Of a stretch of 54,081 bases of DNA, positions 137 through 53,884 are shown in pieces. The translations under genes and the position numbers were made by a program. The notes below the pieces were generated by a model. That model made no database searches, had not been told where the DNA came from, and saw only the letters and a program-made list of their open reading frames with translations. Numbering within the stretch: position 1 is the stretch's first letter; every line of letters starts with the position of its first letter. Source of the stretch: a virus (Duplodnaviria; Caudoviricetes); IMG/VR virus record IMGVR_UViG_3300020021_000019, positions 1-54,081 of that record; one strand, written 5' to 3'.

Positions 137-301
137 CGGCGCGAGCTTGAGCTTGACCGCCTCGAAGGCGTAGCTGGCCACCTCGCCCCGGATCCGCCGC
201 TGCTCCAGCAGCTCGCCGTAGCTGGCCTCCATCTTGTTCATCGCCCCGTGCTTGGGGCGCTGGGTGCGACCACGCGCGAAGGTCCGCTTGCCGAACGTCA
301 T
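1..301 (-). CDS. PD-(D/E)XK endonuclease-like protein (DUF1064-like); spans the junction and ends at the stop at 53881-53883
   Basis: Manual translation MTFGKRT...LTFYTPDYRVILVDGTEEYHEVKGFWEDDARVKIK...EEVPAV*; YTPD...EVKG motif; ATGA coupling at both ends. Confidence 0.8.
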   Translation of the reverse strand, partial: MTFGKRTFARGRTQRPKHGAMNKMEASYGELLEQRRIRGEVASYAFEAVKLKLAPLTFYTPDYRVILVDGTEEYHEVKGFWEDDARVKIKTAAVIHDCYV

Positions 302-666
302 GACTTTACTCCGAGATCCACTTCAAAAAGGCCGAGCTGCCCCCGGCATGGGATGAGGTCGCATCGGGACTGGAGCGCGAGCTCGAATCCGTAGGGCCCC
401 TGAAACCAGCGGCTTTTCGAAAACCGGACGCAGCCAATGATTTCAGCAAATCCCACTACGCCACCCTTCGGGAGCAGCTCGGCAGGCGGGAGCCGCTCTC
501 CCCACCCACGGTCTCTCAGGTACATATCCGCCAGGACATCCAGCTTCTTGCCGGCATGGATCGCGATGGGGCCCCGATACGTCGTTGACCAATTGCGGTT
601 CTCGATATCCTTGAGCCCTTCGGCGATCAGCCAGGCCCACGGCTGCTGGATTGACAGGGCTTTCAT
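298..666 (-). CDS. ASCH domain protein
   Basis: MKALSIQQPWAWLIAEGLKDIENRNW..YRGPIAIHAG...CRGQLGLF signature. Confidence 0.92.
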   Translation of the reverse strand: MKALSIQQPWAWLIAEGLKDIENRNWSTTYRGPIAIHAGKKLDVLADMYLRDRGWGERLPPAELLPKGGVVGFAEIIGCVRFSKSRWFQGPYGFELALQSRCDLIPCRGQLGLFEVDLGVKS

Positions 667-802
667 CGCACCTCCTCCGTCATCCACCCACTGGACAGGT
701 CCACAATCTCCGCCGGGCCGGCCGTGCTGAGCTTCGCTGCATCCCGAGTGAACGGGTGCGGCGGCGCAGGCGGCAGGGGCACGGGCGCCGGGTAGTTCAT
801 GG

Positions 803-3001: not shown

Positions 3002-3303
3002 GGCAGCACCGTGATGGCGTAGGCCTTGCCTTTATCCCGACGAATCCAGCCCCGGCGCTCCAGCGCGGTCAGATGCTCGTGGACTGAGGCCAACGACTTG
3101 AAGCCCAGGGCGCGGGCCATCGCCTCGAACGACGGTGCGCTGCCCGTTGCCGTAATGCGGTCCGCGACGAACGCCAAGACCCGCCGCTGCTTCGCCGTCA
3201 GCGGGTGCTTCCGCTCACCCCGGAGCGCCGCCAGTTCATCCCGGAGCGTGGCGTTCTCGGCCTGGAGCGAGCGCACCTGCTCTTCGAGGCCCGTAGCGGT
3301 CAT
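2998..3303 (-). CDS. LexA-like N-terminal winged-helix DNA-binding protein with no peptidase domain
   Basis: LTAKQRRVLAFV...APSFEAMARALGFKSLASVHEHLTALERRGWIRR, preceded by a coiled coil. Confidence 0.88.
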   Translation of the reverse strand: MTATGLEEQVRSLQAENATLRDELAALRGERKHPLTAKQRRVLAFVADRITATGSAPSFEAMARALGFKSLASVHEHLTALERRGWIRRDKGKAYAITVLP

Positions 3304-3419
3304 GACTTCCACCGGATCGGATAGACCCGCCGCCGGGTCCAGTACCAGCGCGCGGCGGCGAGGGTGCCGATCGTCCAGATCATGCCGCTGATGGCGAGAC
3401 GGGTGGCTGGGTCGGTCAT
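3300..3419 (-). CDS. Small membrane peptide (39 aa)
   Basis: MTDPATRLAISGMIWTIGTLAAARWYW...; ATGA-coupled to both neighbours. Confidence 0.55.
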   Translation of the reverse strand: MTDPATRLAISGMIWTIGTLAAARWYWTRRRVYPIRWKS

Positions 3420-26033: not shown

Positions 26034-26318
26034 TCATTTCGCGGTCAGATAGACCGGGATGATGCCTTTCGATTGGACATGCGTCCGGTTGGGCTTGGGG
26101 TAGCCTTTCCCGCCGCATTCGGGGCAATCCAGATAGTCCGAGCCCCCCAGCCAGAGCTTGCCACGACCGGCACAGGCCACGCAGTGCTTCACGCGGCCAG
26201 TACCGTCGCAGTCCATGCACTTCATCCAACGCCAGCGACCATCGGTCCCGATGCCGGCGCGGTGGTGCCCATAGCCTCTGCAGCCGATGCAGGGCTCCGA
26301 GCCGTGCCGCTCAGCCAA
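26034..26318 (-). CDS. DnaJ-type Cys-rich zinc finger protein
   Basis: Four CxxCxGxG motifs. Confidence 0.75.
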   Translation of the reverse strand: MAERHGSEPCIGCRGYGHHRAGIGTDGRWRWMKCMDCDGTGRVKHCVACAGRGKLWLGGSDYLDCPECGGKGYPKPNRTHVQSKGIIPVYLTAK

Positions 26319-31260: not shown

Positions 31261-32322
31261 TTACAGGGTGAAGGTCGGCGCCGAGTAGCTGGCGTTATTG
31301 AACTGGAGGACGCCACCGTTGAGGCGGTTCCAGACCCCGATGCCGAACATGTGCTCGTAGTATTCGGCGCGGAGCGGGAAGGACTCAATAGTGGCCTCGA
31401 GGTGCAGGCCAGCGCTGTCCGGATCGGTCCGCATGACCAGCGGCTTCCGGGGATCCGCGGTGTCGGTGACGAAGGCGTAGTTCGCGATCGCCCACGGCTT
31501 GGTCCAGACTTCCGCCTGGCCGAAGATGCCGATCGCGCGGTTGTCCATCCGGGCCGGGTTGGCCCGTTCCTGATTCGGCTGGTTGGCGTTGGCGTTCAGT
31601 GAGAACCGGGGGTCGATGTAGGCCGAGAAGCCGGTCAGCGCCGCCACGGCGGCGGCATCGGCCACGTTGATGAACACCTTGACGGCCCCACCGAACCCGT
31701 GCTCCACGACATCGTTGATCGAGGCTTGGAGCACGGCCGCGGTCAGTGTGGCATTGGCGTCGTAATGGGTGTGCGACGTGCCGTCGTAGGCCTCGCCGTT
31801 CGGCCCGTCCTGGATGTTGGACGAGTCGGCGTTGATGAAGGCCTTCACCGCCAGACTGGCCTTGTCGACGTTGAGGTCGACGAAGGTGTAGTTGGTGGGG
31901 GTGTAGATGGCCTTCTGCAGCTGATACCGGATCCGGCGCAGGTCGGCCTTCTGCTGCGCCTGCTGGGCGATGGCGTAATCCGCCGGGGTCGCCTTCTTCT
32001 CGAACTGCTTGGTGAAGCCCACGGCGAAGTGGAACTTCTGCAGCGGGAACCCGATCAGGACGCCAGGGGCATCCTTCTGGGTCGGCGCCCGGGAGAACTC
32101 ATCCACTTCCTGCGAGTCGCCGCCGATCGAGCTGCCGGAGATCCGCTGCCGGTCCTGACTGACCGCGCACAGGTCCGTCAGCATCTGCTGGACCATGGCG
32201 TTGTAGTTGGCATTGTCCGCCGCGAGAACTTCCTCGATCGTGGACAGGCCGAACTTGACCGCCGACTGGAAATTGACGGCGAGCAGGGAACTGATGTCGA
32301 GAGTGCCGGTCTTCTGTGCCAT
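31261..32322 (-). CDS. Major capsid protein
   Basis: 353 aa; position after scaffold and cement genes; C-terminal FGIGVWNRLNGGVL. Confidence 0.85.
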   Translation of the reverse strand: MAQKTGTLDISSLLAVNFQSAVKFGLSTIEEVLAADNANYNAMVQQMLTDLCAVSQDRQRISGSSIGGDSQEVDEFSRAPTQKDAPGVLIGFPLQKFHFAVGFTKQFEKKATPADYAIAQQAQQKADLRRIRYQLQKAIYTPTNYTFVDLNVDKASLAVKAFINADSSNIQDGPNGEAYDGTSHTHYDANATLTAAVLQASINDVVEHGFGGAVKVFINVADAAAVAALTGFSAYIDPRFSLNANANQPNQERANPARMDNRAIGIFGQAEVWTKPWAIANYAFVTDTADPRKPLVMRTDPDSAGLHLEATIESFPLRAEYYEHMFGIGVWNRLNGGVLQFNNASYSAPTFTL

Positions 32323-32349: not shown

Positions 32350-32754
32350 TTAGGCCGCGTTGAGGATGACGCGGATGTCGGTCGCGCTGAGGGCACGCGC
32401 GATGGCGACGAGGCCGCCGGTGGTGGCCGCGGTATCCAGGCGGCCTGCGGTCGCGGCCACGAAGTAGCTGGCCCCGATGGTCAGGCCGGACCCGTACCGG
32501 AACCGGGCGCCGATGCCGAACAGCGTGACCGGTTCGCCGATCGCGCAGGCCCGGGCGGTGAATCCGTCGAACTTGGCGGCTTCATTGGCCGCGGTGCCGT
32601 TCGACATGTAGACCTTGCCGTCCGCGGCCTTGATGTAGCAGGCCGCGCCGACGTCCAGGGCTTCGCCGGCGTACAGATTGCCGGTGATCGAGGGCGCGAA
32701 CATGCCCTGCGAGGCGTCCATGCTGCACTGAGCAACCCGAGTGACGAGTGCCAT
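32350..32754 (-). CDS. Capsid cement/decoration protein
   Basis: AGEALDVGAACYI..DGKVY..GLTIGASYFV..AGRL. Confidence 0.8.
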   Translation of the reverse strand: MALVTRVAQCSMDASQGMFAPSITGNLYAGEALDVGAACYIKAADGKVYMSNGTAANEAAKFDGFTARACAIGEPVTLFGIGARFRYGSGLTIGASYFVAATAGRLDTAATTGGLVAIARALSATDIRVILNAA

Positions 32755-32787: not shown

Positions 32788-32850
32788 AAAAAGCCGGGGC
32801 ACGGCCTCAGGGTCCCGTATGCGGGACCATCTGAAAGGCCACACCCCGGC
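32788..32850 (-). terminator. Intrinsic terminator with a long interrupted stem
   Basis: GCCGGGG..GGCCT..GGTCCCG/CGGGACC..AGGCC..CCCCGGC followed by TTTTT on the minus strand. Confidence 0.7.
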
Positions 32851-32991
32851 ATCGCGCCAAAGCCGATCACCGATGGGCATCGCGCCGATCGGGTCGTTGT
32901 GTCTATGTCTGCGGAGCCTCGCGCTCCGCCATTCGGTTGCCAGGCCTCGCGCCTGGCGCTGCTATCAGATCAGCCCATCGCGGGCTGGATC
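32848..32991 (-). repeat. Array of five hairpins with GCGA(T/G) loops
   Basis: Stems at 32971-32987, 32939-32957, 32911-32929, 32876-32886 and 32848-32858; stem sequences vary, loop conserved. Confidence 0.85.
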
Positions 32992-32997
32992 ATCCGT

Positions 32998-33675
32998 TTA
33001 CAAGGCGCCGGCGATATCAGCGTTCCGGCGCGCCATCACGGCGCTGTTCGTAGCCGGTGCTTCTTCGGCGTCACCGTCCGACCCGCCGGCACCACTGCCG
33101 CCAGCGCCTGACCCTTTGTAGAAGAAGGGGCATTCCTTCTTGTACGTGATCTTGAGGAAGTCCTCGACCGTCTCAGCGGTCACCTTTCCCGCGGCATCAC
33201 GAACCAGAAACCCCTTCTTGTCCTCGGTCCGGTCGATTCGACCATTCGGGCCGGGCGCCAGATCCTTCATCGCCTTGTCAATCCGGTCGATCATGACCCC
33301 GAAATTCAGGGCCAGGTACCGGACATGGTCGACCAGTGTGACCTTCAGATTCTCGGCCTTCAGCTGCTCGTTCTCATCGAGAATCGGCTTCCGAGCCAGC
33401 GCTTCGGCGTCCCTGATCTCCTGCAGTTGCTGATCGGTGACTCCGTTTTCCTTGGCCTTCTTGGTCAGCTTCAGCGCGGCGAGGTCTTCCTCGGCCTTCT
33501 TCGCCCGCTTGTCGGCTTCCTTCCGGTCGTCGCGCTCTTTCTGGAGCGTGGCCTCGAGCTTGGAGACATCCGGCACCTCGGTGGCCTTCGGGTGCCATTT
33601 GCCGTCCCGTTCCTCGTAGATCGCCTTGAAGGCCTCGGGAACGTCTTCTTCTTTGTCAAAGACCGGCAGCGCCAA
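32998..33675 (-). CDS. Capsid scaffolding protein
   Basis: VPEAFKAIYEERDGKW..KLEATLQKER coiled coil..FFYKGSGAGGSGA; TTG start inferred. Confidence 0.85.
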   Translation of the reverse strand: MALPVFDKEEDVPEAFKAIYEERDGKWHPKATEVPDVSKLEATLQKERDDRKEADKRAKKAEEDLAALKLTKKAKENGVTDQQLQEIRDAEALARKPILDENEQLKAENLKVTLVDHVRYLALNFGVMIDRIDKAMKDLAPGPNGRIDRTEDKKGFLVRDAAGKVTAETVEDFLKITYKKECPFFYKGSGAGGSGAGGSDGDAEEAPATNSAVMARRNADIAGAL

Positions 33676-33771
33676 GCGAACCTCGCATCGAGGGATGGTG
33701 AGCGACACCCCGGAAACGACAAACGCTCGGCCTCCGGGTTTCCCCAGATCCGAGCGCCGGACCACATCAAG

Positions 33772-33800
33772 ATTGTCCTGCGATGAACGATTCTAGGCAA
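33772..33800 (-). promoter_or_regulatory. Putative promoter for the scaffold-capsid operon
   Basis: TTGCCT-17 bp-GACAAT in the intergenic gap. Confidence 0.45.
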
Positions 33801-33814
33801 TCATGCGCGAATCG

Positions 33815-34795
33815 TCAAGCGGCAACTAGCGCCGACAGGTCGCCATCACCTGGCCTGACCTGACCGTTGGTCTCGTAAATCGGGATGCAGCGGCAGTTGT
33901 ATTCGGTGTCGCCAGGCAAGAACTGCCCGTTCGAGAAGTTGCCATCCCATGGCACCGTGTTGCCCTGCATCAGGACGTGGCTTTCCCGTTCCCGGTCGTC
34001 CAGGACACCAGACCACCGCTTCGTAAGAGTACCCCCGTCAAGGAACCCCTGATCCACCGCGTTCTTGTAGCCCAAATGTTCAGCTAGCCGATTGGCGTCC
34101 AGCGCCGCGGTCCGGGCATTCGTCTCGGCATTCGTGGCGATCCAGCTCTGGCGGTACGCCTCGGTCATCTTGTCGATCTGGCCCTCGCTCAGGCCGTTCC
34201 CGGCGAAGGCCTTCCTGATCGTGCCCACCGAGCGCTTGTCCAGCAGCGTCCGCTCGAGGGCCGAGAGATCCCCGTCGAGCAGCTCCTGACGGAAGTTCTC
34301 CACGTAGGACAGCTGGTTGGGCGCCAGGCCAATTACGCTGCGCAGCTGCCGGGCAACTTCCCGCGGGTTGACCCCAGCGCGGAGACCCTGCTCCACGTAG
34401 GCCCGGACGACCTCGCGCACCCCATCCTTGAGCCCACCGATGACCGCGGTATCGAGCTCCCGGATAGCTACCACGACATCGGGGCTGAGGACATTGAAGG
34501 CGATGCCACGCGCCGACGCCGGCAGCGTCCGGGTGACGGATTCGGCGGCCTGCTCGACTCCGTTGCGCAGGGTCTTCTGGGATGCCGCGAATGCCTGGTC
34601 CAGTACCTGAGCAGACAGCGGGCCCTCGAAGATCAGCTCGATCTGCTGGCTCCGGATGATCTGCTCGAGCTGGGTCTCGCTGACCGAGGCCCTGAGCTTG
34701 TTGAAGGCCCTGAGGATGGACTGGCGCAGTTCGGGGGAGAGCTGGCTGGCTCTCCGCTCGAGGCGGCGCCGGAACAGGATCTCGGTGGGGCTCAC
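33815..34795 (-). CDS. Head morphogenesis protein (SPP1 gp7/Mu F-like)
   Basis: KRWSGVLDDRERESH..YNCRC. Confidence 0.9.
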   Translation of the reverse strand: MSPTEILFRRRLERRASQLSPELRQSILRAFNKLRASVSETQLEQIIRSQQIELIFEGPLSAQVLDQAFAASQKTLRNGVEQAAESVTRTLPASARGIAFNVLSPDVVVAIRELDTAVIGGLKDGVREVVRAYVEQGLRAGVNPREVARQLRSVIGLAPNQLSYVENFRQELLDGDLSALERTLLDKRSVGTIRKAFAGNGLSEGQIDKMTEAYRQSWIATNAETNARTAALDANRLAEHLGYKNAVDQGFLDGGTLTKRWSGVLDDRERESHVLMQGNTVPWDGNFSNGQFLPGDTEYNCRCIPIYETNGQVRPGDGDLSALVAA

Positions 34796-36157
34796 TTCCG
34801 CCACCACGCTTTCTTCGGCACTGGCTCAGCACGTACCGTGATGGTGGTCGGGGTGACCTCGACAATGCGGACCAATCCCGCCGCTGGCTTCTGACCGCTG
34901 GGGATCAGGCCCAACTCCAGCAGCTGGTCACCAGTCCAGGTCTGCAGGTCGCCGACCTTCAGTCCGATCATTGGCCCCTCATGACGGTCGGTGTGGTTGT
35001 GGTGTAGTCGACGGTCAGCCGGGCACCGACCCTGCTCAGTTCTTCAGGTGTGGCCAGTCGCGGAGTTCCATCCGGCTCACCAATCAGCCACGGCCCGCCA
35101 TCCCTCGACACCATCAGGCCGGGACGCAGCCAGTCGCCGCTCACTTGCCCGCCATACGGCGATGCCGCCGACGACGGAACGTTCCCGGGCGCGGGAACAA
35201 CTTGACCCAACCCTGCGAGAAGTCGATGCGGTTCAATGCGGCTTGGTCGGCCCATGCTTCGCCGCGCGGAAGCGTCAGCGTGATCGTCTCACCGGCCACC
35301 CAATCGGGGAACGGCTTGTCGAGGCCCAGATCGACCGTCACCTGGCTATGCCGGGAGCGCCACCGCTTGCGCAGCCTCATTTTCCCGCCATGCGCCGGGC
35401 GCGGCGCGGCCGGAACTTCGAGGGGCCAATCCATGGTCGACGCGGGTTCTGGTTCACCATGTCCTGTTGGCCCCGGAAGGGGTTGGGGCCGTGATACCTC
35501 GCCCTGAGGAACTCCCCGAATACGGCATCCGCGGCAATCGTCATCGAACCATCCGCGGACTTGAGGTAGATGACCCCGCCGGTGTGCCGGCGTTGCCCCG
35601 GCTTCATCTGGTCGATCACCCGATCGTCAAACGGGGGCATTTCCATGAGGAGATGCGTGCGGGGGTCGAAGGTCATCGGGCGAGCTCCGGTGGCTTCGGG
35701 TGGCCTGCGTCAAATTGGACCGGGTCGGCCGGATCGTCGGATCGATGGACGACGATACAGGCGCGATCTTCATCATAGAATGGCACGACTCCACTGCCAG
35801 CGCAACGCCAGCAGTCCGCATCATGCCCCTCGACCCCATCCACCCTCAGGAAGTGCTGGTCATCATCGATATCCGGGTCTTCCGGGCAGACTTGTAGAAT
35901 CTCAGGCCGGCACCAGCAATCCCTCGACTCGTCCTGGTGGGGCCGGCTCATGCAGCCTTGCGCCTGGGCCAGGGTATCGTGCCGTTGAACATCTCGGCCA
36001 AGGTGTAGGCCTGGCGCCGGCTCAGGACACACTCGTCAATATTGGGCACCAGAAAGGGCGCGTTGTTCCGGTAGAGACTGTGGGTGGTGTACTTGCCCCG
36101 ATAGGCGTGGCGCACGACGTGGACAACATTGTGGGCCTGGTCTGCCTTGTTCTTCAT
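34792..36157 (-). other. Six small coupled hypothetical ORFs between portal and head morphogenesis genes (34792-34971, 34968-35144, 35141-35380, 35377-35676, 35673-35951, 35948-36157)
   Basis: Consecutive ATGA/GTGA stop-start overlaps. Confidence 0.65.
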
Positions 36158-36177: not shown

Positions 36178-37788
36178 TTATGCCGCAACCGGCAGTTTCG
36201 GCGGCTGACCGCCGGCCGCTGCGAGGGCGGCCGCGGCCTTCTTGTTGGCCAGATCCTGCGCATCCGCCTCCTGCCGCTGCTTGGTCACCAGCAGTAGCGC
36301 CTCCTGCTCTGGGGCAAACTCCGGCGGCAGCTCCCCGGTCTTGAGGGCGTAGAGCAGGGCATCTGCCGGGAAGACACCTTCAGAGTAGGCGGTCACCAGC
36401 ACCGCCAGATAGGCTGGGTCGATGCCCTTGGCCTCGAAGTCCATGTTGATTTTTACACTGCCAGCCTCGATCCCGAGGAACTCGGCCGCGTACTGGAAGG
36501 CGAGCTCGAGGCAGTCCTGAGTAGCTCTCCCGACGGTCTTGACCGAGGCGTTCTGGGCCATGCTGTCGATCGATCGACCGGTGGCCGTCTCAGCAACCGC
36601 AGTGTTCGGATTGAGGAACGCAGCGCCGGCCTCGGCCATCGCCTTCTTCGTGTCCTCAAGGGTTTTCATCGAATCGGTAAGAACCTCGATTGGCGGAGAG
36701 AGCCAGTACACCGGCTGCGGAGCTATAGCCTGCCCGTCCTGAGGGTAGGGTACCTCAATAGTATTCCGCGGCCCCAAGGTGATCGGCGGGTAGTCGCCCT
36801 CATCGTCGGGTACAGCGCCGATTCGGACCAAAGTCGGAATCTCCGCCAGGCTCTCGAGGCTCAGGATGTTCGTCTGGACCTGGTGGTGCTGGATGTTGAG
36901 GTCGGCCAGGTCGAGCAGCGGCGGCGCCGTCTCCTGGTCGCTCTTCTTCCGGCCAGACCGGAGCGGGGACCACGGGATCCGTTTGATCACACGCATGGCC
37001 TTCTTAGCTTTAAACAACGTGGGCCTGGACTCGCCGGGCAGCAGCCGCCAGGACTGGTACTGCACGGTGCTCTTCTCCAGCGAATAAATGCGGTAGTACA
37101 CCACGGACTGCACCCCGAAGTCCCCAACCCGTTCCGTGGTAGTCTCCTGACGAATGAACAGGACCAGCGTCTTCTGGCCGTTGATCTTCTGATACAGCGG
37201 GAGGATCACTTCATCAGCCTTGACCAGGATGAAGTAGGGCCGAATCCCGAGCGCTTCCTCATCGTCCGAGCTCAGCTCGGCGCCGGGCTCCGCCGCGGCG
37301 GAGGCATTCGAGCGGTCAATCGTCGGGTCATCCGGATCGGGGCAGTCCACAAACAGGCCCGCGTGCCCATCGACAACCGAGTTCAGAATCAGGTCGCTGG
37401 TCAGCACCATGCCGTGGGTGCCGCCCGCATCGGCGTTCTCCCAGAGATCTTCCAGTTCCTGCGGCATGTCCTCGAGCTCGATCTCTTCCAGCAGAATCAT
37501 GCCGACTGTGGCCACCACGGTGCGGGCGAAGCCATTGTGCAGGGCCCCGATCATGACCCGGAACGCATAGGACTCGTCCGACTCGCCCTCGAGCTGCTTC
37601 AGGTAGATGTCCTCGCCGGCGCGGATCGCGTCCACACCCTCCATCAAGTCCCGGCAGCGCTGGTACTTCGCCTTCATGCGCAGGTAGGCCGGTGTGAGGA
37701 AGGCCGGGTTGTTGGTATCGACCGGAGGCGGTTCGGTGGTCGCTGCCGGAGTCGTAGTCGTCACGCCTGGCTGGAGGGCAGTGGCCAT
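36178..37788 (-). CDS. Portal protein (DUF4055-like)
   Basis: Follows TerL; PPLLDLADLNIQHHQ, AETAT motifs. Confidence 0.92.
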   Translation of the reverse strand: MATALQPGVTTTTPAATTEPPPVDTNNPAFLTPAYLRMKAKYQRCRDLMEGVDAIRAGEDIYLKQLEGESDESYAFRVMIGALHNGFARTVVATVGMILLEEIELEDMPQELEDLWENADAGGTHGMVLTSDLILNSVVDGHAGLFVDCPDPDDPTIDRSNASAAAEPGAELSSDDEEALGIRPYFILVKADEVILPLYQKINGQKTLVLFIRQETTTERVGDFGVQSVVYYRIYSLEKSTVQYQSWRLLPGESRPTLFKAKKAMRVIKRIPWSPLRSGRKKSDQETAPPLLDLADLNIQHHQVQTNILSLESLAEIPTLVRIGAVPDDEGDYPPITLGPRNTIEVPYPQDGQAIAPQPVYWLSPPIEVLTDSMKTLEDTKKAMAEAGAAFLNPNTAVAETATGRSIDSMAQNASVKTVGRATQDCLELAFQYAAEFLGIEAGSVKINMDFEAKGIDPAYLAVLVTAYSEGVFPADALLYALKTGELPPEFAPEQEALLLVTKQRQEADAQDLANKKAAAALAAAGGQPPKLPVAA

Positions 37789-43772: not shown

Positions 43773-44065
43773 TGTCTACGCCGTTTGTCTACGCCGGGGG
43801 CACAATTCGGCGCCTTTTCGGCTGACTTGGACCCTCCTTTATATCTGCGTACCGAGCCAGAAACAGGCGTGCTAGCGGAACCCCATGTCGGTGTGCCAGA
43901 TGGGGCAAAAGTGCTTTCCCCGCTTATGTCTGATAAGCGTGAGGTCCGAAGTTCAAATCTTCGCAGGCCCATTTCGTAACCCCTTGTGGTGTTAGGTAGT
44001 TGCAGTGATCCGGCGTAGACGCGACTGTGTGTCATTTGGGGCTGTCTACGCCGTTGTCTACGTCG
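43773..44065. promoter_or_regulatory. attP with arm-type repeats TGTCTACGCCG
   Basis: Copies at 43773-43783, 43786-43796, 44043-44053, 44055-44065 (1 mismatch) and an inverted copy at 44011-44020. Confidence 0.85.
43930..43971 (+). other. attP core: 3' half of tRNA-Ile(GAT)
   Basis: CTGATAA-GCGTG-AGGTC-CGAAG-TTCAAAT-CTTCG-CAGGCCC-A; 5' half absent; adjacent to the integrase. Confidence 0.9.
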
Positions 44066-45332
44066 GATCATGGTGCACCTCGGCCACTTCCCCTCGAATC
44101 CTCGCCCGGATCACCTTCGCTCCGTCCCTTGCCGTCTTGCTCTCCTGGTCCCGGTAGATGCGTTCCGGCACCTGCGTATCCGACCACCCGCCGATCTCTT
44201 TCAGCTCATCCCGGCTCGCGCCGCCTTCCACCGTTGCATCGACCGCCTGGCGCCGGATGCCGTAGGGGCCGCGGCCATCTGCGTGCTCGATCTGGCAGGC
44301 CACCTCGTTCAGTCGGTGCCACTTCCGCACGGCCGTCCCGGTCACCGGCTCGGCGTCCGCCTGCGCGGGCCTGGCCACCCCTTCACCCTTCCGTCCGCCT
44401 TTGAGTTGTCCCTGGGGGAAAAGCGGGTAATCGATGGCCAGCTTCTCGAGATCGCGGAGATAGCCATCGATCAGGCAGGCCTGCACGATGATGAGCTGTC
44501 CGGTCGTCAGGTGTACGACGGCGCCCCGCTTCTTCCCCCGGCCCCGCACCGTGAAGGTCCCGGCCTCGAGGTCAACGTCCGATCGGCGTTGTTTCCGCAC
44601 CTGGCCGAGTCGGAGCTCGGCCCCCAACGTGAGCAGCAGGCCGTACCGGGGCTCGATCTTCGGCGCGTTCCGAATCAGGGCCCGCATCTCCTCGAGCGTG
44701 TAGCGCGGCCGCTTGGGCTCTGGGGCTTCCAGCTCATCGCGCAGCTTCTTCTTCCACTGGGACTCCGGTAGACACTGGCCCTCCTCGATGTGCCCTTCAT
44801 CGCGGAGCCACTGCGCCACCGCCAGGAGCCGGCCGACCGTGATCTCGGCGCCCCGGACCCCGATGTGCCCCTCTTTCCGAAGTTCCCGGGCGCGCCGCCG
44901 TCCGAGCTCCCGGATGTCCGCTTTGCCGATCGTGGCGAACGTCCGTGCCGGGCCCCAGATCCGGGTGATGTCGGTCATCGCCCGGAGCACCTCCCGGCGA
45001 TGCGGCGTGTCCTTCGGGTAGCAGCCCCGATCCCGATCCTGCATCAGCACGGTCGCCTGGGCGATCGTGAGCGGAGCCGCGGCGCGACGCTCGACAGCCG
45101 GCAGGTTGCCGAGCAGCGCCTGGTGCTTGGCCTCCGCTTCTTTGATGGCCCACCGTTCCACCTCCTTCAGGATCCGACCGTTCGCCATCCGGAGCATTTT
45201 CTTGAGGGAGCGGTAGCGCCAGTTCTTCTGGTCGCGCCATATCAGGTAGAGCCGGTGGCCCCGCGTGGCGAGCTCCAGCACCGTCACCTTGTGCGGAATC
45301 TCCCCGACGCCATAGGACCACGGTTCGGTCAT
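44058..45332 (-). CDS. int: Tyrosine integrase
   Basis: ELRLGQ (R), GRGK (K), YGIRR, IGGW, RIY; next to attP and xis. Confidence 0.92.
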   Translation of the reverse strand: MTEPWSYGVGEIPHKVTVLELATRGHRLYLIWRDQKNWRYRSLKKMLRMANGRILKEVERWAIKEAEAKHQALLGNLPAVERRAAAPLTIAQATVLMQDRDRGCYPKDTPHRREVLRAMTDITRIWGPARTFATIGKADIRELGRRRARELRKEGHIGVRGAEITVGRLLAVAQWLRDEGHIEEGQCLPESQWKKKLRDELEAPEPKRPRYTLEEMRALIRNAPKIEPRYGLLLTLGAELRLGQVRKQRRSDVDLEAGTFTVRGRGKKRGAVVHLTTGQLIIVQACLIDGYLRDLEKLAIDYPLFPQGQLKGGRKGEGVARPAQADAEPVTGTAVRKWHRLNEVACQIEHADGRGPYGIRRQAVDATVEGGASRDELKEIGGWSDTQVPERIYRDQESKTARDGAKVIRARIRGEVAEVHHDPT

Positions 45333-45643
45333 GACGCCTTCTCCAGCCGGACGGCATTGGGGGCAATCCGGTAGCCCCGACCGGCGCGCTCGGCGGGCAG
45401 CTGCCCCTGGTGGATCCAGTTCCGTACCGTCTGCTCCGCAATCCCATGCGCCGCGGCGTACTGCTCGACTGAGACGGTGGCGCACTCCGCCTTGAGCATT
45501 GCGCAGCGGGTGTCCAGCTCCCCGGCGCACCAGTCCAGGGCATCGGCGACCGGATCGGACTTCGCCACCTTCCGCCGGCGCTCCGCCTCGGCCCGCCAGT
45601 CCCGGGACACGGACTGCACGGAGGCGAGGAGTTCGTAGATCAT
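45329..45643 (-). CDS. xis: Excisionase-like HTH protein
   Basis: VSVEQYAAAHGIAEQTVRNWIHQGQLPAERAGRGYRI. Confidence 0.8.
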   Translation of the reverse strand: MIYELLASVQSVSRDWRAEAERRRKVAKSDPVADALDWCAGELDTRCAMLKAECATVSVEQYAAAHGIAEQTVRNWIHQGQLPAERAGRGYRIAPNAVRLEKAS

Positions 45644-51187: not shown

Positions 51188-51568
51188 TTAGGCGGGGACC
51201 GAATGTGATTCCGCGCTGTCGGAGCAGATGAGGTCGCAGAGAGCCTCATGCGCCTTGCGAAGTGCGGCGCGATGCTTTTCGCCCACGTTCCTGAGGGGCA
51301 CCTTCGCCGTCATCTTCGTGCGTTCATTGCGGACCTCAATCCACACCATCTTCTCGCGGGGCGGCTTGCGAAATGCGGAGCCTTCAGGCGGCCGAGTCTG
51401 CGAGAGACGGGAATCCTCGTTCGTCCACTCGGGACTATCCGCAGTGATGGCGTCATTGCGATGGTTACCACGGTGCCCTGCCTTTTTCTGGCAGGGCCAG
51501 CGGAGCCAGAACTTGCCGCTCCGACCGCAAATAATCGTATTGGGGCACTGGTCTTTCATCGGGCGCAA
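51188..51568 (-). CDS. Hypothetical protein
   Basis: CG..CQKKAGHRGNH metal-binding motif. Confidence 0.55.
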   Translation of the reverse strand: MRPMKDQCPNTIICGRSGKFWLRWPCQKKAGHRGNHRNDAITADSPEWTNEDSRLSQTRPPEGSAFRKPPREKMVWIEVRNERTKMTAKVPLRNVGEKHRAALRKAHEALCDLICSDSAESHSVPA

Positions 51569-51825
51569 TCTCCCTTGCTCATTGGTTTAGGACACAGACT
51601 CGTCAGCGGGGCCCGCAGGGCAATGGCGATCCGCCACGCTACGTCGATGGCGAGAACCTGCTGGCCGAGTTCGATGAAACCGAATGTCGCCCTAGAAATG
51701 CCAACCATCTCGGCGACCCTCGTTTGATTCAGTCCGCGCCGCTTCCTCGCCTTGCGGATTAGTAGCCCACACTCAGCGCGGAAATCCTTCTTGTCGTTCT
51801 CGGTCCACTGGTGCTCCGCTGCCAT
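51556..51825 (-). CDS. Xre-family HTH protein
   Basis: IRKARKRRGLNQTRVAEMVGISRATFGFIELG. Confidence 0.88.
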   Translation of the reverse strand: MAAEHQWTENDKKDFRAECGLLIRKARKRRGLNQTRVAEMVGISRATFGFIELGQQVLAIDVAWRIAIALRAPLTSLCPKPMSKGDCAR

Positions 51826-51853
51826 TGTCGCGCTCCTGTGTCGGTGCTGGGGG

Positions 51854-52201
51854 TTAGGCCGAGCGGTCCTGCCAGGCCGTTTCGGCCAAATACCGCTCCG
51901 TGAACTCATGGGCCAGGGCCTTCAGGCAGACGCCGTACTTCCGCTCGAAGGACTTGATCCCGTCTTCCTGTTCGCCGTGGTGCCGCCGGCACCCGGGGTA
52001 GACATTGTGCTCATCGCGGCCACCGGCTCCCCGCGTCTTGACGTGGCAACAGTCAGAGACCAGTCGGTTGCCTTCCCGCAGAAACCCGTCGCATTCGCAG
52101 GGCGTTCGGCCGGCCAAGATGCACGGTTGCCGGCGGATGAAGGCCCGCAATCCGTGATTCGGGACGATAGGCTCCGGCTTGGGAATCGAGGAGCGGATCA
52201 T
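51854..52201 (-). CDS. HNH nuclease (DUF968-like)
   Basis: FIRRQPC..CHVKTRGAGG..PGCRRHHGEQ. Confidence 0.8.
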   Translation of the reverse strand: MIRSSIPKPEPIVPNHGLRAFIRRQPCILAGRTPCECDGFLREGNRLVSDCCHVKTRGAGGRDEHNVYPGCRRHHGEQEDGIKSFERKYGVCLKALAHEFTERYLAETAWQDRSA

Positions 52202-52596: not shown

Positions 52597-52778
52597 GCGG
52601 GTCTCTTCTTCGGTTGGAGCGACCGTCCGTGCCGGGCCGGGTAGTCCTCTTCGTTCCGTCGCCGACCACCCATGCCGCGCGCATTGAGCTGGGTCCGGCG
52701 ATTGTCCTTGAACGGACCTCCGCACTCGGCGCACTCGCACAGGTACTGGCGGCGGTCCCGATCGGCCCGGCGCTTCAT
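52593..52778 (-). CDS. Small zinc-binding protein
   Basis: CECAEC; coupled ends. Confidence 0.5.
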   Translation of the reverse strand: MKRRADRDRRQYLCECAECGGPFKDNRRTQLNARGMGGRRRNEEDYPARHGRSLQPKKRPA

Positions 52779-53884
52779 GCGGCACCCGAGACGTCTGGGC
52801 TGATCCGCTTCCGCGCGAGCTCGATATAGGCCGGCTTGAGGTCGATGTGGACTGCCGCGCGTCCCAGGCCGAGCGCCACCTTCGCCGTGGTGCCGGCGCC
52901 GCCGAACGGGTCGAGCACGGTGTCGCCGATAGCCGAGCCCGCCAGAATGCAGCGCCGCGGGATTTCCTCGGGGAAGGTGGCGAAGTGGGCACCCTTGTAC
53001 GGCTTGCAGTTGATTGTCCAGACGGATCGTGCGTTGCGAGTCTCAGGGTTCACCCCAAATCGACGGGTCGATTTTCCCGTCTGCCGGTGGCCACCGCTCA
53101 GGCCATCCGTGCCCGGATCGAATCGAGCCTCGGCCCCGGTCGTGGACACCTCGGCAATCGCGGCCGCGTTGAAGTAGTACCGGCGCTGTTTGGCGAAGAG
53201 GAACAGGTATTCATGGGCCCGGGTGGGCCGGTCCCGGACGCTCTCAGGCATCGGGTTCCGCTTGTGCCAGATGATGTCCTGCCGGAGCACCCAGCCATCC
53301 TCCTGAAGCGCGAAGGCCGCCCGCCAAGGGAGCCCCAGCAAGCTCTTCAGTGGCAGCCCGCCGAACGCTCGGCGAACGGTGGTGTTCCGGCTCTCCCGCT
53401 GGTTGTCGCGGGAACCTTCCAGCGTTGAGCCGGCATCCGAGCCCCGCCCGCCATCGGTGTAGCAATCCCCGAGGTTGAGCCAAAGGGTTCCATCCGGGGT
53501 GAGGACCCGCCGCACTTCCCGGAAGATCTCGACCAGCCTGGCCACGTACTCCGCCGGCGAATCTTCCACTCCGACCTGGTGGTCGATCCGCCTGGCCCCG
53601 CACGGGCATTGCGAACGGACAGGAACGGCGTAGGCAGATTTGGCCGGCTGACCGCCCCGAGTATTCGAGAACCGACCATGGCCCTCGCCGGCGCCGGTGG
53701 TGTCGTTGCGCGGCTTCACCCGCCCGCGGTGAGGACAGTCCGGCTCCCCGCCTTCCCACTGGCCGGTTCCGTAGTCCCGGAGCCCCCAGTACGGCGGACT
53801 GGTCACACAGACGCGGGCCGAGGCCTCCGGCAGTGTCCGGAGAACCGTGGGCGCATGGCCGGTGAGCAGTTGGAGCGAAGTCAT
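52775..53884 (-). CDS. DNA N6-adenine/N4-cytosine methyltransferase (beta class)
   Basis: TSPPY catalytic motif, IIWHK, HFATFP, VLDPFGGAGTT. Confidence 0.95.
   Translation of the reverse strand: MTSLQLLTGHAPTVLRTLPEASARVCVTSPPYWGLRDYGTGQWEGGEPDCPHRGRVKPRNDTTGAGEGHGRFSNTRGGQPAKSAYAVPVRSQCPCGARRIDHQVGVEDSPAEYVARLVEIFREVRRVLTPDGTLWLNLGDCYTDGGRGSDAGSTLEGSRDNQRESRNTTVRRAFGGLPLKSLLGLPWRAAFALQEDGWVLRQDIIWHKRNPMPESVRDRPTRAHEYLFLFAKQRRYYFNAAAIAEVSTTGAEARFDPGTDGLSGGHRQTGKSTRRFGVNPETRNARSVWTINCKPYKGAHFATFPEEIPRRCILAGSAIGDTVLDPFGGAGTTAKVALGLGRAAVHIDLKPAYIELARKRISPDVSGAA

What the first reader, a model, noticed from the sequence alone, without database searches (positions are those of the whole stretch)
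32788..32991. Attenuator-like RNA in front of the capsid genes: five GCGA(U/G)-loop hairpins, the last overlapping a terminator
Seen: the ~240-nt gap between the scaffold and cement/MCP genes holds five hairpins on the transcribed strand: CAGCCC-GCGAU-GGGCUG, GCCAGGC-GCGAG-GCCUGGC, GCGGAGC-GCGAG-GCUCCGC, and GGC-GCGAU-GCC twice. Stems vary but stay paired while the loop is conserved. The 3' arm of hairpin 5 (GCC, 32850-32848) is also the base of a long stem closed by CCCCGGC-UUUUU, so hairpin 5 and the full terminator cannot form together. Inference: an RNA-binding protein (the scaffold, or a small Zn-ribbon or ASCH protein) binds the loops and sets read-through into the capsid and tail genes. 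Alternatively this is a discrete ncRNA ending at the terminator.
Basis: partly seen in the sequence, partly recalled or inferred. Interest (0 to 1): 0.82.

Follow-up and report, generated by a model that had tools for sequence, protein, structure and literature searches.

The report
Hairpin switch before phage capsid genes
A row of small RNA hairpins that all carry the same five-letter loop sits between a phage's scaffold and capsid genes, the last one competing with a transcription stop signal, and the same hairpins flank scaffold and capsid genes in many other phages, which points to an undescribed control of capsid production.

Summary
The 243-nt gap between the scaffold gene and the cement/capsid genes (minus strand) holds the five hairpins described. 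A sixth lies in the scaffold's 3' end. All have the pentaloop G-Y-G-A-K closed by C-G.

The last hairpin's 3' arm is the 5' base of a 58-nt stem-loop followed by UUUUU. Rfam has no match.

Six other metagenomic phages with a homologous scaffold (39-49% identity) carry the same element directly after that gene. It has 2-5 hairpins with different stems, a conserved unpaired linker, and last loops 27-29 nt apart. The last hairpin overlaps a long terminator-like stem in 7 of 7.

Across 24 hairpins, 85% of stem cells pair against 58% in shuffles (0 of 500 reach it).

Pairs and arrays of the same hairpin occur in other viral contigs. They are sense-oriented and intergenic, between scaffold and capsid genes, on scaffold start codons, or before small-terminase-like genes.

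Best reading, at about 0.5: a protein-dependent antiterminator/terminator switch, working like ANTAR or Bgl systems but not a member of them. The binder is unknown. The scaffold is the leading candidate, and ASCH is disfavoured. No expression data exist.

The parts
33790..33818 (-). sigma-70-like promoter candidate (TTGACG-17-TAGAAT) just upstream of the scaffold gene
   Evidence: 10 of 12 consensus matches. Consensus match only, not evidence of function.
32998..33675 (-). head scaffolding protein gene (likely TTG start at 33675; the ORF is open to a GTG at 33765)
   Evidence: phrog_206 head scaffolding protein, E 5.6e-12. Start inferred from alignment with the L004 and L005 homologs.
33030..33044 (-). 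hairpin 0: GCGCC-GUGAU-GGCGC, inside the 3' end of the scaffold ORF
32971..32987 (-). hairpin 1: CAGCCC-GCGAU-GGGCUG
32939..32957 (-). hairpin 2: GCCAGGC-GCGAG-GCCUGGC
32911..32929 (-). hairpin 3: GCGGAGC-GCGAG-GCUCCGC
32893..32910 (-). unpaired linker AGACAUAGACACAACGAC. Its core GACAUAR is kept in 6 of 7 orthologs, with a variant in L237.
32870..32892 (-). hairpin 4: CCGAUCGGC-GCGAU-GCCCAUCGG (8 pairs and a C.C mismatch)
32843..32863 (-). hairpin 5, the candidate antiterminator: GCUUUGGC-GCGAU-GCCGGGGU. Its 3' arm is shared with the terminator.
   Evidence: -9.8 kcal/mol alone; loop 28 nt from the loop of hairpin 4
32793..32850 (-). long stem-loop of the intrinsic terminator; its 5' base GCCGGGG is the 3' arm of hairpin 5
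   Evidence: -44.2 kcal/mol. Forcing three pairs of hairpin 5 costs 7.4 kcal/mol.
32788..32792 (-). U-tract (UUUUU) directly after the stem
32350..32754 (-). 134-aa cement/decoration-like protein gene, with AGAGGA 10 nt upstream of the ATG
   Evidence: Conserved next to the capsid gene in 76 of 80 related loci by tblastn. No Pfam hit. Atlas lead to PF09956 Phage_cement_2.
31261..32322 (-). major capsid protein gene
   Evidence: phrog_3990 major head protein, E 7.8e-27

Best explanation
The gap encodes a cis-acting regulatory RNA on the transcript that leaves the scaffold gene.

It is an array of short hairpins that display the pentaloop G-Y-G-A-K on a C-G closing pair. These are most likely binding sites for a trans-acting, probably oligomeric, protein.

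The last hairpin is made before the terminator. It uses GCCGG(R)G, which the terminator needs as the base of its stem next to the U-tract.
- If the hairpin is held, for example by a bound protein, the terminator cannot close to its base. RNA polymerase then reads on into the cement, capsid and remaining structural genes.
- If it is not held, the much more stable terminator displaces it and transcription stops after the scaffold gene.

Shown here: the hairpins, their covariation, the conserved loop, the conserved overlap with the long stem, the U-tract, and the linkage to the scaffold gene.

Inferred: that a protein binds, that termination occurs and is relieved, and who the binder is. The scaffold protein is the leading candidate. 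That would couple capsid-gene expression to free scaffold.
For: 1. Hairpins are real.
- Across 24 loop-defined instances from six elements, 85.4% of stem cells pair against 57.6% in shuffles (0 of 500).
- The covariation score is 0.687 against 0.187 (0 of 500). Slid controls give 32-50%. Seven of 8 pairs change on both sides.

2. Loop and closing pair are invariant while stems differ. This fits loop-specific recognition.

3. Seven orthologous elements exist: the window, L004, L005, L156/L208, L209, L213 and L237. Scaffold identity is 39-49% for those aligned in A5 and A6.
- In 7 of 7, a 57-76-nt stem-loop of -40 to -51 kcal/mol starts at the closing G of the last hairpin.
- In 7 of 7, the last two loops are 27-29 nt apart.
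- In the six folded, forcing the last hairpin costs 1.6-15.8 kcal/mol of the long stem.
- L237 was found through the scaffold protein, not through the hairpins.

4. A run of 4 or more U follows the stem in 4 of 7, including the window.

5. No sigma-70-like promoter lies in the gap in 6 of 7. The array is therefore read from upstream, where a promoter-like site precedes the scaffold gene. About 30 kb of structural genes lie downstream on the same strand, so read-through is required.

6. The same hairpin is used in other contexts that suit a binding site.
- The start codon of scaffold genes lies in the loop of the second hairpin in L025, L076, L093, L115, L145 and L164.
- Eight of 10 such genes tested match scaffold PHROGs.

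7. Two-hairpin matches in viral contigs are 72 of 80 sense and 37 of 80 intergenic. A permuted-loop control gives 40 of 67 and 7 of 67.
Against: - There is no expression, 3'-end or binding data. No RNA run holds the sequence (reported only as tried).
- Three of 7 orthologs (L156, L209, L213) lack a run of 4 or more U after the long stem. The stem may therefore not always be a terminator.
- The long stem is 30-40 kcal/mol more stable than the last hairpin. Any relief must be kinetic and protein-assisted.
- In the larger group of phages with arrays between scaffold and capsid genes (for example G020, G010, L130), no terminator follows the last hairpin. Antitermination therefore cannot be the hairpin's general function.
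- No known RNA-binding antiterminator domain was found in the window: ANTAR, CAT_RBD, and PHROG scans of 20 early ORFs.
- Four of the seven orthologs were found with DNA patterns that already demanded two or three loops and GCCGG, so those features are given in them. The long stem was not part of any pattern.
Confidence: 0.5

Rival explanations
1. Passive RNA elements. The hairpins protect or mark the mRNA, as 3' or 5' stabilisers or processing sites. The long stem is a constitutive partial terminator or a processing site that sets the ratio of scaffold to capsid mRNA. The overlap with the last hairpin has no switching role.
For: - Arrays without a terminator stand between scaffold and capsid genes in other phages.
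- Three of 7 long stems lack a U-run.
- The long stems are about 20 or more pairs with internal loops, a shape that double-strand-specific RNases can cut (general knowledge, not tested).
Against: - Stability alone does not explain an invariant G-Y-G-A-K loop and C-G closing pair over variable stems.
- It does not explain the fixed 27-29-nt spacing of the last two loops.
- It does not explain zero spacer between the last hairpin and the long stem in 7 of 7.
- It does not explain start codons placed inside the loop.
Confidence: 0.18
2. A loading site for processive antitermination. The hairpins recruit a factor (N-like peptide, NusG paralog or similar) to RNA polymerase. The polymerase then ignores this terminator and later ones in the late operon. 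The overlap with the terminator is secondary.
For: - A five-nucleotide loop beginning G-N-R-A on a short stem resembles the kind of hairpin used by lambdoid N proteins (recalled).
- The hairpins lie at the heads of structural gene blocks, including before small-terminase-like genes.
- A conserved unpaired linker accompanies them.
Against: - No antitermination family was found among 20 early ORFs, though N-like proteins are hard to recognise.
- Multiple copies and start codons inside loops are not features of known loading sites.
- The conserved sharing of GCCGG with the long stem is unexplained by this model.
Confidence: 0.15
3. A discrete non-coding RNA of about 200 nt that ends at the terminator and acts in trans.
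For: A strongly structured region ending in a terminator.
Against: - There is no promoter-like site in the gap in 6 of 7 orthologs.
- The first hairpin starts 10 nt after the scaffold stop, and one hairpin lies inside the scaffold ORF.
- The number of hairpins varies from 2 to 6 by the strict 7-mer count.
- The same hairpins overlap start codons elsewhere.
Confidence: 0.05
4. A DNA-level feature: protein-binding repeats, recombination sites or single-strand DNA hairpins.
For: In some contigs the pair of hairpins lies between an HNH endonuclease-like gene and the small-terminase-like gene. That is where cos sites often lie (general knowledge).
Against: - Variable stems with compensatory changes and 15 G.U against 6 A.C cells in stems.
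- 72 of 80 matches lie on the sense strand, against 40 of 67 for a control pattern.
- The conserved part is a non-palindromic 7-mer.
Confidence: 0.03

Closest known systems
ANTAR-target dual-hairpin RNAs (EutV, NasR, AmiR; mycobacterial Rv1626)
   Same: - Two short hairpins with conserved loop positions and variable stems.
- The second hairpin is formed from the 5' base of an intrinsic terminator, so binding prevents termination. The binder is a dimer (passages of PMC3369931).
- In mycobacteria the same motif overlaps the ribosome-binding site or ORF start and represses translation (passages of bioRxiv 10.1101/660928).
- Both layouts are seen here.
   Different: - The loops here are five nucleotides, G-Y-G-A-K, not six with A at position 1 and G at position 4.
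- Up to six copies occur.
- No ANTAR domain is found in the window.
- The context is phage head genes.
Lambdoid N protein with its boxB hairpin (nut sites)
   Same: A short stem with a five-nucleotide loop that begins like a GNRA tetraloop, read by a phage protein to overcome terminators (recalled, not from a call).
   Different: - The last loop position here is U or G.
- There are several copies.
- The position is in the late structural region.
- There is direct overlap with the terminator.
- No N-like protein or boxA was identified.
BglG/SacY/LicT antiterminators with RAT hairpins
   Same: A protein-stabilised hairpin whose 3' part overlaps the 5' arm of a terminator (general knowledge; review PMC12591593 seen only in the search listing).
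   Different: - RAT is one longer imperfect hairpin with its own consensus.
- No CAT_RBD domain is found in the window.
Autoregulation of the phage P22 scaffolding protein gene
   Same: Free scaffold protein controls head-gene expression after transcription initiation. Only the reference Wyckoff and Casjens 1985 was seen, in the reference list of PMC2115188. The content is recalled, and the paper itself is not held.
   Different: In P22 the RNA target is, to my recollection, not defined. Here an RNA element is defined, but no protein has been tied to it.
Coat-protein operator hairpins of RNA phages (MS2 type)
   Same: A hairpin with a loop-specific protein contact that contains the start codon of the regulated gene (recalled). 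Compare the scaffold start codons inside the GCGAU-G loop.
   Different: - That is a single hairpin with a different loop in an RNA phage.
- It has no link to termination.

Membership tests
Intrinsic (Rho-independent) terminator | G+C-rich stem-loop | tested here: met
   32850-32793, -44.2 kcal/mol. The simple scan did not list it, because its loop limit of 3-8 excludes compound stems.
Intrinsic (Rho-independent) terminator | U-tract directly 3' of the stem | tested here: met
   UUUUU at 32792-32788. Among the orthologs, 4 of 7 have a run of 4 or more U.
Intrinsic (Rho-independent) terminator | RNA 3' ends formed at the site | not testable with these tools
   No RNA run is listed for this sequence.
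ANTAR-target RNA | Two short hairpins, the second built from the 5' base of a terminator or covering the RBS or start | tested here: met
   (terminator overlap, 7 of 7). (start codons in the second hairpin in other phages). Definition from passages of PMC3369931.
ANTAR-target RNA | Hexanucleotide loops with A at position 1 and G at position 4 | tested here: not met
   All 24 loops are five nucleotides, G-Y-G-A-K.
ANTAR-target RNA | A cognate ANTAR-domain protein | tested here: inconclusive
   No PF03861 match in the window. The record is 76% complete and the host is unknown.
Bgl/Sac RAT antitermination | CAT_RBD protein | tested here: inconclusive
   No PF03123 match in the window. The host is unknown.
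Lambdoid nut site | Hairpin with a five-nucleotide GNRA-like loop | tested here: inconclusive
   The loop has five nucleotides with G1, G3 (purine) and A4. Its three-dimensional fold is not tested, and the boxB consensus is recalled only.
Lambdoid nut site | boxA element and an N-type protein | not tested
PHROG scans of 20 early ORFs named no antitermination protein.
Any Rfam 15 family | Match at the family's gathering score | tested here: not met
   0 matches in the window and in 18 related or motif-bearing loci. The best sub-threshold match in the region has E 0.43.
Head scaffolding protein (phrog_206), upstream gene | Profile match | tested here: met
   E 5.6e-12. L005 gives 4.3e-20 and L154 gives 1.2e-34. 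L128 gives 3.4e-08.
Phage cement protein (PF09956), downstream gene | Profile or fold match | tested here: inconclusive
   No Pfam hit at E 0.01 or better. The Atlas gives feature score 0.96 to a cluster in which 19% of members carry PF09956, and a structural row of TM 0.77 that meets its naming bar.

The most novel reading that the evidence does not exclude
The scaffold protein itself reads the G-Y-G-A-K hairpins.

Free, unassembled scaffold would bind the array on its own mRNA. In this phage that would open the terminator, so that cement and capsid proteins are made only once scaffold is available.

In other phages the same contact would sit on the scaffold start codon and shut off scaffold synthesis.

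This would be a widespread RNA-based assembly checkpoint. It would supply the missing RNA target for the classical autoregulation of scaffolding proteins.

A basic helix shared by most of these scaffolds (GK-AL--ER-ARK-AE) would be the RNA-binding part.
Probability: 0.2. Interest if true: 0.85.

Novelty: new variant of a known kind. Interest (0 to 1): 0.7.

Why it matters
Regulation of phage late genes after transcription starts is known for only a few model phages. How scaffold and capsid protein levels are balanced is largely unknown.

Here a compact, easily mutated RNA element recurs next to scaffold, capsid and terminase-like genes in phages with different capsid families. It is wired in at least two ways: overlapping a terminator, or overlapping a start codon.

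If a protein partner is found, three things follow:
- It defines a new RNA-protein recognition pair.
- It gives a testable model for ordering head assembly.
- It gives annotators a marker for head-gene regulation in uncultured phages of G+C-rich hosts.

It could also serve as a small orthogonal switch.

Tried and rejected
- Rfam: nothing at gathering score in the window or in 18 loci. Only chance-level matches appear in the region.
- Cultured-phage collection: no DNA match for the scaffold-to-capsid region, none for an HNH-terminase array, and no protein match for the scaffold.
- Expression: no RNA holder listed. The two DNA holders may be the source sample.
- tRNA/tmRNA: none in the window, L156 or L208.
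- Promoter inside the gap: none in 6 of 7 orthologs by my scan. One weak 8-of-12 site appears in L004.
- ASCH as general binder: PF04266 was found in 1 of 20 motif-bearing records and 0 of 20 comparison records. The search also missed the G001 homolog that tblastn found, so its sensitivity is limited.
- CxxC-rich or basic small ORFs: none has a homolog in the ortholog-bearing contigs.
- Link between an ER..AR-type scaffold motif and nearby hairpins among capsid relatives. By my count from its rows, 12 of 23 with the motif against 3 of 54 without. I rejected this as evidence: close relatives are counted repeatedly, the regular expression is loose, and in L093, L115 and L145 the motif's own codons form the hairpin.
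- Loop pairing with the 3' end of 16S rRNA: the GUGAU variant would fit (recalled), but the commoner GCGAU would not. Dropped.
- Whole-element MAFFT alignments misplace the upstream hairpins. I therefore counted pairs on loop-anchored instances.
- Raw hit numbers do not separate the motif from chance. The permuted-loop control gave 67. Only orientation and position do.
- Six of 11 metagenome pattern hits looked like chance matches in coding sequence, judged by eye.
- PDB sequence searches with the scaffold profile and the cement-like protein: nothing below E 0.1.
- Structure prediction was not accepted.
- Literature: 11-mer strings and keyword searches returned nothing on this motif.
Some of these arrays may be among them.

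Full report
**Setting**

The window is a linear viral record of 54,081 nt from IMG/VR, estimated 76% complete, with 65% G+C. The DNA is held by soil-metagenome runs. Nearly all genes lie on the minus strand.

Around the finding the order is:
- portal (36178-37788; phrog_145)
- MuF-like head morphogenesis protein (33815-34807)
- head scaffolding protein (32998-33675 or to 33765; phrog_206)
- a 243-nt gap
- a 134-aa protein (32350-32754)
- the major capsid protein (31261-32322; phrog_3990)

The 134-aa protein has no Pfam match. The ESM Atlas relates it, as a lead, to phage cement proteins (PF09956).

**The observation**

- The fourth and fifth are longer than described: 8 pairs each, one with a C.C mismatch and one with G.U pairs.
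- A sixth hairpin with loop GUGAU lies in the last 45 nt of the scaffold ORF.
- The 3' arm of the fifth hairpin (from 32850) is the first part of a 58-nt compound stem-loop (-44.2 kcal/mol). UUUUU follows at 32792-32788.

The cluster is not chance.
- The 7-mer C-GYGAK-G occurs 6 times in 349 nt, against 22 times on the remaining 53.7 kb of that strand.
- At least 4 of 5 flanking positions pair in 6 of 6 inside. This holds for 0 of 22 outside and 4 of 37 on the other strand.
- The region folds 5.7 standard deviations better than dinucleotide shuffles.

**Relatives**

A capsid-protein alignment found 80 related viral loci.
- In most of them the gene upstream of the cement-like gene ends within a few tens of bases of it.
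- By my scan, 62 of 77 have no such hairpin there.

Two loci have a gap of about 240 nt holding the same element: L004 (capsid 66% identical) and L005 (54%).

A DNA pattern taken from the shared parts found three more elements in metagenome contigs: L208 (the same phage as L156), L209 and L213. It also gave six matches that I judged by eye to be chance.

A search with the scaffold protein, which does not look at the RNA, returned 5 loci. Four of them have DNA after the gene, and all 4 carry the element, including a new one, L237.

A scaffold homolog (36-49% identical by tblastn) stands directly upstream in the orthologs searched. It also does so in L237. The downstream gene is the cement/capsid pair in five. 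It is a different head gene in two: phrog_212 capsid protein in L209 and an unknown 121-aa protein in L156. The element therefore travels with the 3' end of this scaffold gene.

**Anatomy shared by the seven**

- One to three upstream hairpins.
- An unpaired linker with the core GACAUAR followed by A/C-rich sequence (a variant in L237).
- One hairpin.
- Then, 27-29 nt further loop to loop, a last hairpin of the form ..GGC-GYGAK-GCCGG...
- The closing G of that last hairpin is the first base of a 57-76-nt stem-loop of -40 to -51 kcal/mol.
- After the stem come a ribosome-binding site and the start codon.

The shared GCCGG and its partner CCGG(C/U) do not vary. The rest of the long stem differs between phages yet stays paired.

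A run of at least four U follows in 4 of 7. L156, L209 and L213 have only U-containing tails.

In the six folded, before the 3' half of the long stem exists the last hairpin is the favoured local fold in 4 of them. Forcing three of its pairs in the full RNA costs 1.6 to 15.8 kcal/mol.

**Covariation**

I took every C-GYGAK-G in six of the elements (24 instances, chosen by the 7-mer alone). I aligned them on the loop and counted an 8-pair stem.
- 85.4% of cells form standard pairs, against 57.6% in shuffles (0 of 500 reach it).
- Slid controls give 32-50%.
- Seven of 8 pairs show changes on both sides.
- The covariation score is 0.687 against 0.187 (0 of 500).

Among positions 2-6 there are 95 Watson-Crick, 15 G.U, 6 A.C and 4 other cells. 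This agrees with an RNA of the sense strand.

The instances are not independent in descent, so the shuffle numbers are not probabilities.

**A wider family**

Eighty of them were stored. A control with the loop letters permuted hit 67, so raw numbers say little. Position and orientation do.

| Pattern | Sense to local genes | Intergenic (crude gene calls) | Within first 70 nt of a gene |
|---|---|---|---|
| Real | 72 of 80 | 37 of 80 | 15 of 80 |
| Permuted-loop control | 40 of 67 | 7 of 67 | 7 of 67 |

Fisher p for orientation is 2.8e-5.

Context of the arrays:
- Of 76 loci with a called downstream ORF, 18 fall in one cluster. Its tested member (L130) matches capsid protein phrog_212.
- Seven fall in a cluster that matches phrog_10 (L101 tested).
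- Eight fall in two clusters of small-terminase-like proteins. These match phrog_226, whose label reads minor tail protein, and phrog_1897 terminase small subunit for L117.
- At least 11 are proteins I took for scaffolds.
- Upstream of the capsid-linked arrays stands a scaffold gene. It is phrog_206 in a cluster of 17 (L128 tested). It is phrog_4708 in L144 and L101.

Start codons in the loop:
- In L025, L076, L093, L115, L145 and L164, the AUG formed by the last two loop letters and the closing G is the likely start codon of the gene.
- A Shine-Dalgarno-like stretch lies just upstream.
- Of 10 such or related genes, 8 match head-scaffolding PHROGs. L076 and L145 match none.

In two complete genomes (G020, G010), one hairpin precedes the scaffold start. 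Two or three lie between scaffold and capsid genes, without a terminator. The hairpin is therefore a module used in several wirings. The terminator overlap is specific to the clade of this window.

**Who binds?**

Nothing here shows binding.
- The scaffold is the only protein always encoded beside the element.
- Most of the scaffolds compared share a basic N-terminal helix motif.
- The ASCH protein at 298-687 has a 46% identical homolog in G001. The family was detected in only 1 of 20 other motif-bearing records, including none of four complete ones. That search also missed the G001 homolog.
- No ANTAR or CAT_RBD domain is present.
- No antitermination PHROG appears among 20 early ORFs.
- A host factor cannot be excluded. 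The host is unknown.

**Mechanism**

I think a conditional terminator is most likely (0.5). A factor bound to the loops, probably across the two last hairpins, holds the last hairpin closed. It withholds GCCGG from the terminator, so that polymerase continues into roughly 30 kb of structural genes.

This is the logic of ANTAR and Bgl/Sac systems (passages of PMC3369931). The start-codon layout in other phages mirrors the translational mode described for mycobacterial ANTAR targets (passages of bioRxiv 10.1101/660928).

Membership in those families fails on the loop (five letters, not six with A1 and G4) and on the absence of the proteins.

The rivals, scored separately, are passive stability or processing elements, a loading site for processive antitermination, a discrete small RNA, and a DNA-level site.

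**Novelty**

No Rfam family matches. My literature searches found no description.

A 2023 survey of IMG/VR intergenic regions may include some of these arrays in supplements I could not open (PMC10690425; passages seen). The main text passages I saw do not mention them. The term scaffold occurs 0 times and hairpin 0 times.

I rate this a new variant of a known kind of control. It is conserved in sequence and structure and widespread, but it has no experimental support.

Noticed in passing
L093 about 5805, L115 about 2898, L145 (minus strand) about 3630 in reverse-complement coordinates: In three scaffold genes the codons of the conserved protein motif E-R-(D/E)-A-R themselves form a GAGC-GYGAK-GCUC hairpin. 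They use GAU/GCU codons that are unusual for these G+C-rich genomes. The window's own scaffold does not do this (GAC GAC).
   Followed up: partly
L004 2211-2815; also L008, L009, L011, L012, L015-L018, L020, L026, L029/L030, L042, L045, L053/L054: Many relatives have 400-730 nt between the end of the cement-like gene and the capsid gene. In the window the two are 27 nt apart. An extra gene or non-coding element may lie there. L018 has a single GCGAU hairpin in that gap.
   Followed up: no
L156 about 3120-3160 (minus strand), same sequence in L208: Just upstream of the hairpin array lies a stretch that looks like the T-arm and 3' acceptor end of a tRNA, ending in CCA. ARAGORN finds no tRNA or tmRNA there.
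   Followed up: partly
window 298-687 (minus strand): An ASCH-domain protein (PF04266, E 1.2e-05; phrog_3193), with a 46% identical homolog in the ortholog-bearing record G001.
   Followed up: partly
G020 51446-51520; L130 about 3300-3347; L106: The 5' leaders of capsid genes that follow arrays without a terminator are pyrimidine-rich. By eye they show no Shine-Dalgarno sequence before the start codon.
   Followed up: no
window 44058-45530, 51556-51909, 52775-53884 (minus strand): Integrase (phrog_1), an HTH repressor-like protein and a DNA methyltransferase. The phage is probably temperate.
   Followed up: no
window 26034-26318 (minus strand): A 94-aa protein with repeated CxxCxGxG-like motifs inside the structural gene block. 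No homolog in the ortholog-bearing contigs.
   Followed up: no
L209 about 1790-1835: A second strong hairpin lies between the long stem and the start codon of the capsid gene.
   Followed up: no
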